A stretch of DNA of 4,772 nucleotides. Source: a virus. Taxonomy: Duplodnaviria > Heunggongvirae > Uroviricota > Caudoviricetes. A program made the position numbers and the translations under genes. Shown here one piece after another: positions 2,525 through 4,680 of the stretch (its first letter is position 1; each line of letters starts with the position of its first letter). The notes under the pieces were generated by a model. It saw only the letters and a list, made by a program, of their open reading frames with translations. It was not told the origin of the DNA and ran no database searches. The stretch is from IMG/VR virus record IMGVR_UViG_2645727810_000002; one strand, written 5' to 3'.

Positions 2525-2595
2525 AGGATGCTCCTTCTGTTTGATTGCATAACGAAAACGCCTCGAGTGAAGCGTTATTGGTATGCATATAAAAA

Positions 2596-2615
2596 GGCCC
2601 TCACACTGGAGGGCA
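2596..2615 (-). terminator. Candidate rho-independent terminator inside the leftward operon (tL1-like position)
   Basis: On the minus strand: GCCCTC-CAGTGT-GAGGGC (6-bp GC-rich stem, 6-nt loop) followed by CTTTTTATAT. Sits in the 220-bp gap between the 51-aa ORF and the cIII-like gene. Confidence 0.45.
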
Positions 2616-2676
2616 AAGAAGATTTCCAATAATCAGAACAAGTCGGCTCCTGTTTAGTTACGAGCGACATTGCTCC

Positions 2677-2704
2677 GTGTATTCACTCGTTGGAATGAAT
2701 ACAC
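2677..2704. repeat. Perfect 9-bp inverted repeat with 10-nt spacer (GTGTATTCA-N10-TGAATACAC)
   Basis: Read directly from the sequence; intergenic, upstream of the terminator hairpin in the direction of leftward transcription. No flanking T-tract, so not a canonical terminator; a protein-binding site or RNA stem-loop is possible. Confidence 0.5.
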
Positions 2705-2743
2705 AGTGCTTATTCGTCATGCATTTCAGGTATTTCTTCGTAT

Positions 2744-2899
2744 TCAACACCCCACATGTTTGTTACCCAGGATAGTTTTTTCGTACCGTTGACAAGATTC
2801 AGACCACATAAACTGACTTCCATGCGGGCGAGTTTCGATATCTGTTATCTCTCCCGGCCGAACAAAACTGGTATTCGACTTCGTTATTTTTACTTTCAT
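2744..2899 (-). CDS. Hypothetical small protein (51 aa), translationally coupled to the upstream 83-aa gene
   Basis: ATG at 2899..2897 overlaps the upstream stop (TAATG); stop TGA at 2746..2744. Hand translation MKVKITKSNTSFVRPGEITDIETRPHGSQFMWSESCQRYEKTILGNKHVGC. Not in the ORF track (short). An antisense plus-strand ORF (2756..2959) covers the same DNA and is judged the shadow. Confidence 0.35.
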   Translation of the reverse strand: MKVKITKSNTSFVRPGEITDIETRPHGSQFMWSESCQRYEKTILGNKHVGC

Positions 2900-3150
2900 T
2901 ACTCATCCCCAAGAGCTTTGCTGATTGCTGACTGTGCTTTCGATACTTCATCAGGATAATGGTCATTCCAGCTTTGCTTGTATGCCTTGTTTAGCATCGC
3001 TTGCAGAGCTTCAAGCAAATCAGGAGCTGCCTCCATCAATCTCAAATCACCACGATGTATGGTTGTATCGTCAAACGTGACATAAACACCATCATCGTTG
3101 AATCCAGTGCCAACAACACTCCACGGCCTTTTCATTCTTTCTACGGTCAT
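2899..3150 (-). CDS. Hypothetical protein (83 aa), first gene of the leftward early operon (occupies the position of lambda N but is not N-like)
   Basis: ORF-track 2899..3156 begins at a GTG that is part of the SD (GAGG 3159..3156); ATG at 3150..3148 has 5-nt spacing. Protein MTVERMKRPWSVVGTGFNDDGVYVTFDD... is net acidic with no arginine-rich motif. No family recognised. Confidence 0.6.
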   Translation of the reverse strand: MTVERMKRPWSVVGTGFNDDGVYVTFDDTTIHRGDLRLMEAAPDLLEALQAMLNKAYKQSWNDHYPDEVSKAQSAISKALGDE

Positions 3151-3322
3151 ATTCACCTCTGTTGTTTATGCCAAAAATATCTTTTTCTATATCAAAAAGC
3201 TGCTTTGCTTTTTGTGACTAAAAGCAAAAAAGCCTTCTCGCTAATGAGCAGCATTGCCGTTCATCCTGAACCCGCCGCGCTCCCGACGCATGGTTTAATG
3301 TCGCGCCGTTCGACATGGCTTA

Positions 3323-3351
3323 ACTATATTCAAAGCTATTATTGCTGTAAA
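3323..3351 (-). promoter_or_regulatory. Candidate pL-like early-left promoter
   Basis: Minus strand: -35 TTTACA (3351..3346), 17-nt spacer, -10 TATAGT (3328..3323); predicted start near 3316, giving a ~165-nt leader before the ATG at 3150. Overlaps operator-like motifs. Confidence 0.45.
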
Positions 3352-3364
3352 TAGCTATAGTTAT
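3326..3364. promoter_or_regulatory. Candidate OL operator sites (two copies/variants of the ATAGCT-NN-AGCTAT motif)
   Basis: 3351-3364 ATAGCTATAGTTAT (one mismatch to the palindrome consensus) and 3326-3339, which reads ATAGCTTTGAATAT on the minus strand (good left half, degenerate right half); centres ~25 bp apart; they overlap the candidate pL -35 and -10. Additional AT-rich palindromes nearby (AGTTAT-AAA-ATAACT at 3359-3373; AATAAC-N7-GTTATT at 3367-3385). Confidence 0.4.
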
Positions 3365-3443
3365 AAAATAACTCCTTTGGTTATTTAGTCATTGATATCT
3401 AATGTAATTTATTTTTCTTGTATGTGAGATTTGGTGTTTTTTG

Positions 3444-3476
3444 GGCAATAAAAAACCCGCAAAAAGCGGGTTTGTT
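3444..3476 (-). terminator. Rho-independent terminator immediately downstream of cI (hairpin is bidirectional, strongest for the minus-strand transcript)
   Basis: Stem AACCCGC / GCGGGTT with AAAAA loop (3454-3472). On the minus strand the hairpin is followed by TTTTTTATT; on the plus strand by TTTGTTG. Lies ~15 nt after the cI stop. Confidence 0.75.
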
Positions 3477-3490
3477 GTGGTGTGATGAGG

Positions 3491-4222
3491 TTAGTAGTCA
3501 ACTACAGACCACCAGAAGATTCTTCCGATGATCTCGATATCGCTTAGATTCTTTTCTTCTTGTGGGTATTCCAGTGAGTTAAAGCTTCTAATGCTTACCT
3601 TGTCAGGCCCTGATCGAAAGAGAATCTTAATGCGTTTCCAACCGTTCTCGTTAATGGCGTAAATCTTTCCGTCAACTATTTTCTTATCGTTGGTGTTAAC
3701 AGCAACTGTTGTTCCATCAGGAATGTTTGGCTCCATGCTGTTGCCACGAGCCGGAAAACAAACAACCCCGCTTCCATCACTGTTCGCGCCAACTCTGCGA
3801 AGGGTTGATTTGGAGAAGCGCAACATAAAGCCGTTGTGATCTTCATCAATCACCCGACCATCCCCGCATGCAAACTCAATATCTTTAAGGTAAGGAACTT
3901 CAACTTCATCACCTCTTAAAGGCGTTCCTCCATCCCATGGGTCCAAATATCCCCACGTGCTTTCATGAGGAATAGAAGATTTTGGATTATAAGGTTCAAC
4001 TCCCTCATCACGCATTGGCCCAGTCCCATCGGAAAGCCATTCCGTACGAACTCCAAGCACTTTTGATATTTCAAAAAGTTTGCGCGTATTGCGTGTTTTT
4101 CCAGACGTAAGTTTCCAGACGCTTGGCTGAGACATGCCAACAGCATTGCCAAGAGAAGCCTGAGTAAACCCAGCCTGATCCATCGCGTATGTAAGCCTTT
4201 GAGAAAAAGTATCTAGTTTCAT
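3491..4222 (-). CDS. cI: CI-like phage repressor (N-terminal HTH DNA-binding domain plus C-terminal LexA/S24-type autopeptidase domain)
   Basis: 243-aa ORF. HTH-like segment QASLGNAVGMSQPSVWKL; S24 signature G-N-S-M (putative nucleophile Ser162) and W-K-R-I-K ~35 residues later (putative general base Lys196), matching the LexA/CI/UmuD Ser-Lys dyad spacing. Divergent from a cro-like gene across an operator-rich intergenic region. Confidence 0.9.
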   Translation of the reverse strand: MKLDTFSQRLTYAMDQAGFTQASLGNAVGMSQPSVWKLTSGKTRNTRKLFEISKVLGVRTEWLSDGTGPMRDEGVEPYNPKSSIPHESTWGYLDPWDGGTPLRGDEVEVPYLKDIEFACGDGRVIDEDHNGFMLRFSKSTLRRVGANSDGSGVVCFPARGNSMEPNIPDGTTVAVNTNDKKIVDGKIYAINENGWKRIKILFRSGPDKVSIRSFNSLEYPQEEKNLSDIEIIGRIFWWSVVDY

Positions 4223-4228
4223 TCGTAC

Positions 4229-4257
4229 AACCTATAGCTACAGCTATTATTAGTCAA
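4229..4257 (-). promoter_or_regulatory. Candidate pRM-like promoter giving a leaderless cI transcript
   Basis: Minus strand: -35 TTGACT (4257..4252), 17-nt spacer, -10 TAGGTT (4234..4229); the cI ATG (4222) lies ~6-7 nt downstream of the -10, and there is no SD. Same arrangement as lambda pRM/cI. Confidence 0.45.
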
Positions 4258-4296
4258 ATACCTAAAGCTATTTACTTTCTGAATAGCTTTGGCTAT
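4234..4296. promoter_or_regulatory. Tripartite operator (OR-like): three 14-bp inverted repeats, consensus ATAGCT-NN-AGCTAT
   Basis: Site at 4234-4247 ATAGCTACAGCTAT (perfect 6+2+6 inverted repeat), 4258-4271 ATACCTAAAGCTAT (1 mismatch), 4283-4296 ATAGCTTTGGCTAT (1 mismatch); centres 24 and 25 bp apart, between divergent cI and cro. Confidence 0.6.
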
Positions 4297-4299
4297 TAT
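4271..4299 (+). promoter_or_regulatory. Candidate pR-like promoter for cro
   Basis: -35 TTTACT (4271-4276), 17-nt spacer, -10 TATTAT (4294-4299). The third operator overlaps the -10/spacer and the second overlaps the -35. The cro SD AGGAG (4318-4322) is followed by ATG 4331. Confidence 0.5.
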
Positions 4300-4330: not shown

Positions 4331-4561
4331 ATGGTCAACGAGGCTATTAAAGCGGCTATTGACTCAGTAGGAAGTCAGCAAAAGTTAGCTAATGCCTGCG
4401 GTGTTAAGCAGCCGTCTGTATGGGCTTGGTTGCATGGGAAGAAAAGGGTATCCGCTGAAAATGCCAAGCGCATTGAAATGGCTACCAATGGAAGCGTCCC
4501 TGCATACCTGATTCGCCCTGATTTATCCGCTTTGTTCCCCAATCCGAACAAAGCAGCTTAA
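4331..4561 (+). CDS. cro: Cro-like / YdaS-family HTH transcriptional regulator (76 aa)
   Basis: ORF-track 4289..4561 starts at a TTG inside the operator region; ATG 4331 with SD AGGAG 8 nt upstream is the likely start. HTH-like QQKLANACGVKQPSVWAWLHGKKRVSAENAKRIE; small size; divergent from cI. Confidence 0.8.
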   Translation: MVNEAIKAAIDSVGSQQKLANACGVKQPSVWAWLHGKKRVSAENAKRIEMATNGSVPAYLIRPDLSALFPNPNKAA

Positions 4562-4574
4562 TAAAGCAAATTTT

Positions 4575-4626
4575 TATACCGAACGGCCCGGTATACGGTC
4601 GGGTGCCCGGCGTGGTCATGGATGAC
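4575..4626 (+). promoter_or_regulatory. Stem-loop and palindrome cluster just downstream of cro (candidate nutR/tR1-like or protein-binding element)
   Basis: TATACCG-AACGGCC-CGGTATA (7-bp stem, 4575-4595) followed by a GC-rich stretch and the palindrome GTCAT-GG-ATGAC (4615-4626). No adjacent T-tract, so not a canonical intrinsic terminator. Confidence 0.35.
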
Positions 4627-4680
4627 TGTCAATGGTGCACAATAAAAAACCAAATTATTTACCTATGGAAATAGTAAGAA

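What the first reader, a model, noticed from the sequence alone, without database searches (positions are those of the whole stretch)
3157..3320. Long structured leader downstream of candidate pL with a GC-rich island: candidate cis-acting RNA
The predicted pL start (~3316) lies ~165 nt upstream of the first ATG (3150). The leader contains a conspicuously GC-rich island (about 3240-3320, e.g. CCCGCCGCGCTCCCGACGCATGG) in otherwise AT-rich DNA, several short stem-loops (GTTCA-TCC-TGAAC; an 8-bp TTGCTTTT/AAAAGCAA stem at ~3203-3224) and no convincing ORF with an SD. This is where lambdoid phages place nutL, or in HK022 the putL antiterminator RNA; a small regulatory RNA is an alternative.
Basis: partly seen in the sequence, partly recalled or inferred. 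Interest (0 to 1): 0.55.

Follow-up and report, generated by a model that had tools for sequence, protein, structure and literature searches.

The report
HK022-type putL antiterminator RNA leader
The GC-rich structured leader is a near-identical copy of putL, the well-studied RNA of phage HK022 that folds as it is made, grips RNA polymerase and lets it read through terminators; the finding is real but already known.

Summary
Window 3244-3316 (minus strand) is a GC-rich island (52-62% GC against 20-32% in the flanks). It starts at the predicted start of an operator-controlled leftward promoter, about 166 nt before the first ATG.

It is putL, the polymerase-utilisation antiterminator RNA of HK022-like lambdoid phages. 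Window 3185-3322 is 96% identical to the annotated pL-putL segments of HK022, HK75 and O276. The few differences from HK022 include two compensatory A-U to U-A flips in the 5' helix. All residues shown to be essential in HK022 are present.

A covariance model built without this allele scores 100.9 bits (E 8e-19). It also finds the partner putR downstream of cro at 4574-4643 (48 bits). Across 50 distinct put sequences, the cryo-EM-derived pairing is 96% kept and 8 pairs show compensatory changes. No N, Nun, or boxB is present. Two terminators (2614-2557) lie before cIII.

The AT-rich 8-bp stem is the core of an 18-bp third hairpin (3238-3194). Equivalent hairpins of unrelated sequence follow 90% of putL copies but not putR. 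Their role is unknown to me and is the only open point.

Verdict: already known, low interest.

The parts
3351..3365 (.). oL2-like operator (ATAGCTATAGTTATA), touching the -35 hexamer of pL
   Evidence: It belongs to the 15-mer repeat family whose other copies are the three oR operators at 4234-4248, 4258-4272 and 4283-4297.
3326..3340 (.). oL1-like operator (ATATTCAAAGCTATT), overlapping the -10 hexamer of pL
   Evidence: Repeat families D2/D3 and inverted pair I6.
3323..3351 (-). pL promoter: -35 TTTACA (3351-3346), 17-nt spacer, -10 TATAGT (3328-3323)
   Evidence: Consensus scan gives 10 of 12 matches. Its position is equivalent to the annotated HK022/HK75/O276 pL.
3244..3316 (-). putL antiterminator RNA, from the predicted +1 (A3316). 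It corresponds to HK022 putL residues 2-74.
   Evidence: 96.4% identity to annotated putL segments (annotations). The covariance model R1 hits 3318-3243 at 100.9 bits, E 8.4e-19.
3298..3316 (-). 5' helix of stem I: AUGUCG (3316-3311) pairs with CGACAU (3303-3298). It is equivalent to HK022 A3-G7:C15-U19, which carries the minor-groove triplex.
   Evidence: Two A-U to U-A compensatory flips and one extra pair relative to HK022. Three of 5 pairs covary across the family. Deleting residues 3-7 inactivates HK022 put (PMC9378689).
3284..3308 (-). Lower helix of stem I: CGGCG (3308-3304) pairs with CGUCG (3288-3284). It is equivalent to HK022 10-14:30-34 and crosses the 5' helix in a pseudoknot-like topology.
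   Evidence: Identical to HK022. 100% of cells paired, with one G-C to A-U change in the family. The pairing was derived from the cryo-EM description.
3290..3295 (-). -10-like element AACCAT (HK022 +23 to +28; last base = U28), proposed to cause a sigma-dependent pause
   Evidence: Identical to HK022. Its role was proposed in PMC9378689.
   Evidence: Identical to HK022. 96.6% of cells paired and 4 pairs with compensatory changes in the family.
3224..3224 (-). Homologue of the put-suppressed backtrack pause site (C94 of the HK022 transcript), after the U6 run
   Evidence: The sequence is identical to HK022 here. The pause position comes from PMC9378689.
3194..3238 (-). Third hairpin: 18 bp, AU-rich, loop AGUCACA, followed or closed by a U5 run. 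It is the 'put. nutL equivalent' of the 1989 HK022 record. Function unknown.
   Evidence: MFE structure. Identical to HK022. One compensatory C-G to U-A change in locus L074. Hairpins at this position follow 90% of putL copies.
3148..3159 (-). Shine-Dalgarno GAGGTG (3159-3154) and ATG (3150-3148) of the first pL gene (83 aa, 3150-2899, PHROG 1273, function unknown)
   Evidence: Sequence. PHROG match at E 8e-19, with no N or Nun family match.
2557..2614 (-). Two tandem intrinsic-terminator-like sites (2614-2597 and 2576-2557, each followed by a U run) between the first pL genes and cIII. They are the presumed targets of put-mediated read-through.
   Evidence: Terminator scan. Near-identical to the HK75 segment that carries two annotated terminators, and in part to the O276 segment that carries tL2a.
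4574..4643 (+). putR, the partner antiterminator RNA, between cro (4331-4561) and cII (starts 4681)
   Evidence: Differs from O276/HK022 putR by one base over the core put element. R1 hit at 48.0 bits, E 1e-8.

Best explanation
Window 3316-3244 (minus strand) is putL, the cis-acting antiterminator RNA of HK022-like lambdoid phages.

Proposed sequence of events:
1. When the prophage repressor (3491-4222) leaves the oL operators, RNA polymerase starts at about A3316.
2. The first ~73 nt of the transcript fold as they are made into a V-shaped two-stem structure. Stem I combines a 5' helix with a second helix in a pseudoknot-like arrangement; stem II follows.
3. In HK022 this RNA binds the zinc-binding domain of the beta' subunit and the beta flap tip of the same polymerase that made it. 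It holds the enzyme in the non-swivelled, active conformation, suppresses the nearby backtrack pause (here 3224), and stays bound for kilobases.
4. The modified polymerase reads through the terminators at 2614-2557 into cIII, kil and the recombination genes. putR (4574-4643) does the same for the rightward operon. No phage antiterminator protein is needed.

Shown here: identity, position, fold conservation, presence of all essential residues, the partner putR, the downstream terminators, and the absence of N.
Inferred from HK022 experiments: polymerase binding, anti-pausing and antitermination by this copy.
For: - Sequence identity: 96.4% over window 3185-3322 to HK022, HK75 and O276, where the segment is annotated as the putL antiterminator RNA next to pL.
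- Same allele elsewhere: the 83-nt core is 100% identical in phage PDP110P2, and the same allele is in 10 further loci held here.
- Differences from HK022 are confined to the 5' end and its helix. They include two A-U to U-A compensatory flips plus one added pair.
- Essential residues A9, U28, G35, G45 and A64, the U68 bulge and the AACCAT element are all present (against PMC9378689).
- Family covariation: on 50 distinct put sequences, 95.9% of cells are paired against 25-51% in slid controls. Eight pairs have double-sided changes, and 0 of 500 shuffles reach the observed score.
- Leave-out covariance model: 100.9 bits, E 8.4e-19 at 3318-3243. putR scores 48 bits, E 1e-8. Nothing else in the window scores above 5.3 bits.
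- Context: an operator-flanked promoter; no N or Nun among the pL-operon ORFs; terminators before cIII that are homologous to annotated ones.
Against: - There is no functional test of this copy.
- The transcription start is inferred, not mapped.
- The window may come from a defective prophage. One downstream gene is frameshifted, so the element could be intact but unused.
- The IMG/VR family set was collected with a pattern that fixes 23 bases, so many pairs are invariant by construction. Covariation is measured only at the free positions.
- The window is only 4.8 kb, so an N-like gene elsewhere in the phage cannot be excluded, although N genes sit at this position in N-dependent phages.
Confidence: 0.93

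Rival explanations
1. The leader is a lambda-type nutL site (boxA plus boxB) that recruits an N-like protein and the Nus factors.
For: The position is the same as lambda nutL. The string UGCUCAUUA (transcript 67-75) differs from the rrn boxA consensus by one base. The 1989 HK022 record labelled the AU hairpin 'put. nutL equivalent'.
Against: There is no boxB-like 5-bp stem with a GNRNA pentaloop in either leader. No ORF of the pL operon in the window matches an N family; the first gene is PHROG 1273 of unknown function and has no N-terminal arginine-rich motif. The boxA-like string overlaps put stem II and is not kept in other putL lineages (UGCUCACAA, UGCGUAUUC, UGCACAAC). HK022 antitermination needs no phage protein (PMC9378689 introduction).
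Confidence: 0.02
2. The segment encodes a free-standing trans-acting small RNA, or an antisense RNA on the plus strand.
For: It is a compact, GC-rich, structured segment. Hairpin III with its U run could end a ~123-nt transcript.
Against: No Rfam small-RNA family reaches threshold here. The plus strand folds no better than shuffles (z -0.77) and shows no promoter or terminator there. The sequence is fully accounted for by putL. In other lineages hairpin III usually lacks a U tail (only 5 of 56 have at least 4 U in the next 8 nt).
Confidence: 0.03
3. The leader encodes a small leaderless peptide: the 32-codon ORF 3316-3218 that begins with AUG at the predicted +1.
For: A 5'-terminal AUG can be translated without a leader in E. 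coli (established knowledge, for example lambda cI from pRM). The ORF exists.
Against: The AUG is absent from the HK022 (AUAGAC), GUCAGUCG, AUAAGUCG and GAUAGUCG alleles of putL. The AUG lies inside the 5' helix. Variation in the region is compensatory for RNA pairing rather than synonymous.
Confidence: 0.02
4. It is a true putL by descent but an inert relic in a decaying prophage.
For: One gene downstream is split by a frameshift in a homopolymer run. Only 38 of 5426 complete E. coli genomes carry this leader.
Against: putL, putR, the promoter, the operators, the repressor, cro and the terminators are all intact. The only substitutions relative to HK022 keep or extend pairing. The same allele is in a deposited phage genome, PDP110P2.
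Confidence: 0.05

Closest known systems
putL of coliphage HK022 (also HK75 and O276): polymerase-utilisation antiterminator RNA. Cryo-EM structure PDB 7XUE (Hwang et al. 2022, PMC9378689). Genetics by King et al. 1996 and Banik-Maiti et al. 1997, as cited in that paper.
   Same: Same position, starting at the +1 of pL. It is 94-96% identical, and identical from residue 20 of the RNA through the pause site and the third hairpin. Same two-stem fold, same essential residues, same -10-like element, the same partner putR after cro, and no N gene.
   Different: The 5' helix is AUGUCG/CGACAU instead of AGACG/CGUCU: two flipped pairs, one nucleotide fewer at the 5' end and one extra pair. The promoter, operators and repressor belong to another immunity type (99% to phage PDP110P2, 98% to APC_JM3.2). 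The gene after the leader is not nun but an 83-aa protein of unknown function, similar to one in Shigella phage Sf101.
putL-like antiterminator RNA of phage HK639 (GenBank HM208537 feature; King et al. 2011, J Bacteriol 193:5784, which I could not read here)
   Same: Same 5' part and overall fold, and a long third hairpin directly after stem II.
   Different: Only 84% identical over the core. Stem II and the third hairpin have different sequences. The HK639 feature is annotated as 126 nt and covers the third hairpin.
Lambda nutL with N protein (protein-dependent processive antitermination)
   Same: Same genomic position and the same outcome: read-through of the tL terminators into cIII and the recombination genes.
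   Different: nut works by binding N and the Nus factors through boxA and boxB. Here there is no boxB and no N, and the RNA itself is expected to bind polymerase.
EAR RNA of Bacillales eps operons (Irnov and Winkler 2010, cited in PMC8632103)
   Same: It is likewise a cis-acting RNA that promotes processive antitermination.
   Different: Unrelated sequence, host and context. I did not test any relationship.

Membership tests
HK022-type put antiterminator RNA (putL) | Lies at the very start of the repressor-controlled leftward early transcript | tested here: met
   The -10 hexamer is at 3328-3323 with operators on both sides. The element begins at the predicted +1, 3316, which aligns with the HK022 +1.
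HK022-type put antiterminator RNA (putL) | Sequence homology to experimentally defined putL | tested here: met
   96.4% over 138 nt to HK022, HK75 and O276. 94.1% over the 83-nt core. Leave-out covariance model: 100.9 bits, E 8.4e-19.
HK022-type put antiterminator RNA (putL) | Fold: 5' helix (3-7:15-19), helix 10-14:30-34 and bulged stem II (36-72), as in the cryo-EM model | tested here: met
   All pairs can form in the window copy, with two compensatory flips relative to HK022. In the family, 95.9% of cells are paired, 8 pairs have double-sided changes, and 0 of 500 shuffles match.
HK022-type put antiterminator RNA (putL) | Residues whose mutation inactivates HK022 put (A9, U28, G35, G45, A64; 5' helix present), and the U68 bulge whose deletion abolishes antitermination but not anti-pausing | tested here: met
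   All are present at the equivalent positions, window transcript 8, 27, 34, 44, 63 and 67. The mutant list comes from PMC9378689.
HK022-type put antiterminator RNA (putL) | putL-specific -10-like NANNAT element at +23 to +28 | tested here: met
   AACCAT at 3295-3290. The feature is described in PMC9378689.
HK022-type put antiterminator RNA (putL) | A second copy (putR) downstream of cro in the rightward operon | tested here: met
   4574-4643 (+), one base different from O276/HK022 putR over the core put element. 48 bits, E 1e-8.
HK022-type put antiterminator RNA (putL) | No phage N-type antiterminator protein; terminators downstream that must be read through | tested here: met
   No N or Nun family hit among the ORFs between pL and cIII. 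Terminator-like sites at 2614-2597 and 2576-2557 are homologous to annotated HK75 and O276 terminators. This is limited to the 4.8-kb window.
HK022-type put antiterminator RNA (putL) | Antitermination and anti-pausing activity in cis, abolished by beta' zinc-binding-domain mutations such as rpoC Y75N | not testable with these tools
   Needs reporter or in vitro transcription assays.
Lambda-type nut site | boxA sequence (CGCUCUUA / UGCUCUUUA) | tested here: inconclusive
   There is one 1-mismatch match, UGCUCAUUA. It overlaps the 3' arm of put stem II and is not conserved in other putL lineages.
Lambda-type nut site | boxB hairpin (5-bp stem, GNRA-like pentaloop) and a cognate N gene just downstream | tested here: not met
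   No such hairpin in either leader. No N-family protein.
Intrinsic terminator (considered for the third hairpin, 3238-3194) | GC-rich stem followed by a free U tract, kept across homologues | tested here: not met
   The stem is AU-rich, and the U5 run can pair with the upstream AGAAG. The terminator scan did not call it. Only 5 of 56 equivalent hairpins in other putL leaders have at least 4 U in the next 8 nt.
Any curated Rfam family | Score at or above the gathering threshold | tested here: not met
   Nothing reaches threshold in 3157-3320. The best overlapping matches are rsmX (18.5 bits against a threshold of 56) and mir-4679 (19.3 bits against 88), both chance level. No put model matched even these near-identical copies, so Rfam 15 appears to hold none.

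The most novel reading that the evidence does not exclude
The AU-rich hairpin directly after putL (3238-3194) is one instance of a general third component of putL modules that is under selection.

Evidence so far:
- In 45 of 50 distinct putL leaders, a 14-23-bp hairpin of unrelated sequence starts 0-8 nt after stem II. It is absent after putR and at control offsets.
- In one family of these hairpins, 7 of 15 pairs covary.

Possible roles, none tested:
- Shielding the polymerase-bound put RNA from 3' exonucleases after the tether is cut.
- Insulating put folding from whatever sequence mosaic recombination places downstream.
- Acting like the RNase III hairpin of the lambda N leader, freeing the first gene's mRNA from the polymerase-anchored 5' end.

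It may already be described for HK639. The 126-nt GenBank feature there covers it, and I could not read King et al. 2011.
Probability: 0.3. Interest if true: 0.4.

Novelty: already known. Interest (0 to 1): 0.15.

Why it matters
For this window it settles how the early operons are regulated. This is a put-type phage, not an N-type one: it has putL and putR, another immunity specificity, and no nun gene.

More generally:
- RefSeq records annotate nothing under any of the 12 best of the 39 matches to this leader in complete E. coli genomes, and Rfam appears to have no put model.
- The alignment and covariance model made here could be used to annotate put elements.
- They occur in Escherichia, Kluyvera, Siccibacter, Pantoea, Winslowiella and Symbiopectobacterium.
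- The natural compensatory variants give independent support for the 5' helix seen only in the 2022 cryo-EM structure.
- The only point that might add knowledge is the conserved third hairpin after putL.

Tried and rejected
- Rfam scan of the whole window at E up to 10. Nothing relevant. The hits at 3447-3528 (Yfr1, Trp_leader, isrK, asX2) all sit on the terminator hairpin after the repressor gene. The hits inside the leader are chance level.
- Whole-leader MFE fold. It pairs the 5' end with sequence 140 nt downstream, which conflicts with co-transcriptional folding and with the cryo-EM structure. I used the published structure instead.
- nut reading: boxA and boxB searches and N-family scans. 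Rejected.
- Terminator reading of the third hairpin. Rejected as a general feature.
- Coding reading of the 32-codon ORF. Rejected.
- Papers: I tried to read King et al. 2011 (PMC3187212), Komissarova et al. 2008 (PMC2677985) and King and Weisberg 2003 (PMC296242). None is held, so I could not check whether the third hairpin is already described.
- Genome-collection scan with the put pattern. About 30 of the 42 hits are in GC-rich Actinomycetota, Planctomycetota and similar groups, and nearly all of these have other gap lengths. I treat them as chance matches of a GC-rich pattern.
- PGAP's 'transcriptional antitermination N peptide' (20 aa) in a related E. coli prophage that also has putL and putR. 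I regard it as a spurious small-ORF call, but I did not follow it up.

Full report
WHAT IS THERE

The window is the immunity and early region of a lambdoid prophage. It holds:
- a CI-like repressor (3491-4222, minus strand; HTH plus Peptidase_S24),
- a Cro-like gene (4331-4561, plus strand),
- the start of a cII-like gene (4681 onwards),
- leftward: an 83-aa gene of unknown function (3150-2899), a small gene split by a frameshift (2899-2710), cIII (2524-2354), a short kil-position ORF, RecT (1964-1053) and a Gp157-family gene.

Between the repressor gene and the first leftward gene lies a sigma-70-like promoter on the minus strand: TTTACA, 17 nt, TATAGT, at 3351-3323. It is flanked and overlapped by two copies of a 15-mer (3326-3340 and 3351-3365). 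The other three copies of that 15-mer sit between the repressor and cro genes, at 4234-4297 with 24-25-nt spacing. This is the layout expected of oL/pL and oR/pR. The inferred transcription start is A3316, and the first ATG with a Shine-Dalgarno sequence is at 3150.

CHECK OF THE OBSERVATION

- GC island. GC is 52-62% in 60-nt windows across 3220-3319. It is 28-32% just downstream in the leader and 20-28% in the operator region.
- Stems. The quoted GC-rich string and both quoted stems are present.
- Folding. The transcribed strand of 3316-3157 folds better than dinucleotide shuffles (z -2.82, 0 of 200 shuffles as good). The opposite strand does not (z -0.77).

IDENTIFICATION

Megablast of 2850-3500 against phage records shows that window 3185-3322 is 96.4% identical to HK022, HK75 and O276. 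In O276 the matching stretch is annotated 'putL, antiterminator RNA', and in HK75 it is annotated 'putL site'. In both it lies just downstream of the annotated pL -10.

The 1989 HK022 record labels a different part of the same match as 'put. nutL equivalent'. That part is the AU-rich hairpin.

In the alignment, the window is base-for-base identical to HK022 from RNA residue 20 to about residue 130. All differences lie in the first 19 nt. HK022 has AGACG...CGUCU, and the window has AUGUCG...CGACAU.

I used the numbering and pairing of the cryo-EM structure (Hwang et al. 2022, PMC9378689). From its description I reconstructed the 21 Watson-Crick pairs:
- 3-7:15-19;
- 10-14:30-34, in which 12-32 is a G.U pair (so four Watson-Crick pairs);
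- 36-41:66-72, with U68 bulged;
- 45-62;
- 47-51:55-59.

On that scheme the window differences are two A-U to U-A flips in the 5' helix, plus one extra pair at the very 5' end. The paper reports that deleting residues 3-7 inactivates put, and that positions 3-5 and 17-19 are the less conserved ones in that helix. This matches what is seen here.

All residues whose mutation inactivates HK022 put are present: A9, U28, G35, G45 and A64. So are the U68 bulge and the putL-specific -10-like AACCAT.

THE PARTNER ELEMENT

Between cro and cII, window 4574-4643 (plus strand) differs from O276/HK022 putR by one loop base over the core put element. putL and putR in the same window differ by compensatory changes. 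Examples are helix 5'-AUGUCG/CGACAU against AUACCG/CGGUAU, and stem II A37-U71 against U-A and G40-C67 against C-G.

FAMILY-LEVEL TEST

A degenerate pattern spanning the conserved core found 118 stretches in IMG/VR. With the phage loci already held, they contain 94 putL-type and 90 putR-type elements. The two types are often paired about 1.2 kb apart on opposite strands. The exact putL allele of the window occurs in 10 other loci, and its putR allele in 7.

I took 50 distinct sequences and used the cryo-EM pairing, written with the pseudoknot-like crossing of the two stem I helices:
- 95.9% of cells form standard pairs, against 25-51% when the 3' partners are slid by 1-3 columns.
- 8 of 23 pairs show changes on both sides.
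- 0 of 500 column shuffles reach the observed covariation score.

One caveat applies. The pattern fixes 23 positions, so those pairs are invariant by construction.

A covariance model built from 20 putL sequences, none of them the window's allele, gives 100.9 bits (E 8.4e-19) at 3318-3243. It gives 48.0 bits (E 1e-8) at 4574-4643. Nothing else in the window scores above 5.3 bits.

Rfam 15 gave no hit, so it appears to hold no put family.

MECHANISM

By homology with HK022, the nascent RNA folds and binds the beta' zinc-binding domain and the beta flap tip of the transcribing polymerase. It counteracts swivelling, suppresses the backtrack pause 21 nt after stem II, and makes the enzyme resistant to intrinsic and Rho-dependent terminators for many kilobases (PMC9378689). 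The pause is at C94 in HK022, which corresponds to window 3224.

In this window the relevant barriers are two terminator-like hairpins with U runs, at 2614-2597 and 2576-2557. The segment 2530-2700 is nearly identical to the HK75 segment that carries two annotated terminators. In part it also matches the O276 segment that carries tL2a. It lies immediately before cIII.

None of the ORFs between pL and cIII matches an N or Nun family. The fold, the position and the context are shown here. The activity itself is inferred.

RIVALS

- nutL. There is no boxB-like hairpin and no N gene. A 1-mismatch boxA-like string overlaps stem II and is not conserved in other putL lineages.
- Free small RNA or antisense RNA. 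There is no support on the plus strand and no Rfam family.
- Leaderless peptide. The window allele happens to begin with AUG at +1 and opens a 32-codon frame. The AUG is missing from the other alleles, and it lies inside the 5' helix.
- Inert relic. This cannot be excluded without an experiment, but every component is intact.

MOSAIC CONTEXT

- Homology to HK022 begins at about the -10/+1 boundary (3322) and ends at 3185, a few bases after the third hairpin.
- Upstream, the promoter, operators and repressor are 99.4% identical to phage PDP110P2 and 98.1% to APC_JM3.2.
- Downstream, the first gene is 92.7% identical to a hypothetical gene of Shigella phage Sf101.
- A related E. coli prophage has the same immunity region, putL and putR. 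There the sequence after stem II is different and leads into an HNH endonuclease gene.
- The leader occurs in 38 of 5426 complete E. coli genomes, and none of the 12 best matches has an annotated feature under it.
- In the species-representative genome set, matches with the true put spacing were found only in Enterobacterales: Escherichia, Kluyvera, Siccibacter, Pantoea, Winslowiella and Symbiopectobacterium.

THE THIRD HAIRPIN

The known pause site lies in its 5' arm.

It is identical in HK022. In one diverged copy (L074) a C-G pair has become U-A and a mismatch has been repaired.

Other putL lineages carry hairpins of quite different sequence at the same place:
- In 45 of 50 distinct leaders, the 60 nt after stem II form one long hairpin. 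It is typically 14-23 bp and usually starts 0-8 nt after stem II.
- The mean dinucleotide-shuffle z is -3.46. At 300 and 600 nt further downstream, after putR, and 300 nt after putR, the means are between -0.10 and -0.39.
- In the commonest family (GAAUUAC...; 12 distinct sequences including HK639), 97.8% of cells pair and 7 of 15 pairs covary. In most of these sequences the loop is UNCG-like.
- Only 5 of 56 are followed by a U-rich tail, so as a class they are not intrinsic terminators.

The HK639 GenBank feature 'putL-like antiterminator RNA' is 126 nt long and covers its third hairpin. The hairpin may therefore already be described in King et al. 2011, which I could not read. Its function is open. 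Ideas are listed under the novel case.

VERDICT

This is a near-identical allele of an experimentally and structurally characterised element. It is already known and of low interest. The only loose end is a modest one: the conserved hairpin after putL.

Noticed in passing
window 4574-4643 (+): putR, the second antiterminator RNA, lies between cro and cII. It differs from O276/HK022 putR by one loop base over the core put element, and the putL-derived model scores it at 48 bits.
   Followed up: yes
window 3194-3238 (-); loci L005-L119, L123: A long hairpin of unrelated sequence directly follows putL in about 90% of distinct leaders, but not putR or control offsets. It shows compensatory changes, and in one family most loops are UNCG-like. 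It is usually not terminator-like, and its function is unknown.
   Followed up: partly
window 3218-3316 (-): This putL allele puts an AUG at the predicted +1 of the pL transcript and opens a 32-codon leaderless frame. The AUG is absent from the other alleles, so it is probably a by-product of the helix sequence.
   Followed up: partly
window 2710-2899 (-): Two overlapping ORFs (51 aa and 37 aa) match the N-terminal and C-terminal parts of one 62-aa PHROG family (phrog_10407). The gene is therefore split by a frameshift, near a run of six A at about 2776-2781. This could be a pseudogene, a sequencing error or slippage.
   Followed up: no
window 3180-3500, 3185-3322 and 2908-3179: Sharp mosaic joints surround the element. 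The immunity module is 99% identical to phage PDP110P2. The putL-plus-hairpin cassette is 96% identical to HK022. The first gene is 93% identical to Shigella phage Sf101. The put cassette behaves as an exchangeable unit bounded at about the -10/+1 and a few bases after the third hairpin.
   Followed up: partly
window 2676-2705 (-): A perfect 13-bp hairpin (GUGUAUUCAUUCC-AACG-AGUGAAUACAC) lies just upstream of the terminator pair. It is identical in HK75 and mostly shared with O276. The whole 2530-2720 stretch folds with z -4.56. Its role was not examined.
   Followed up: no
window 3450-3476 (both strands): An 8-bp GC-rich hairpin with A and U runs on both sides lies just after the repressor gene stop. 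It is a bidirectional-looking terminator between cI and the oL/pL region, and it accounts for all the weak Rfam matches at 3431-3538.
   Followed up: no
L122 6136-6198 (E. coli A357 prophage): RefSeq annotates a 20-aa 'transcriptional antitermination N peptide' in a prophage that has the same immunity region and intact putL and putR. It is probably a spurious small-ORF call, but an N fragment in a put phage would be odd.
   Followed up: no
whole window; Rfam: No Rfam 15 model matched these near-identical put copies, and none of the 12 best of the 39 matches to this leader in complete E. coli genomes has an annotated feature under it. The alignments A3 and A4 and the model R1 made here could seed such a family.
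   Followed up: partly
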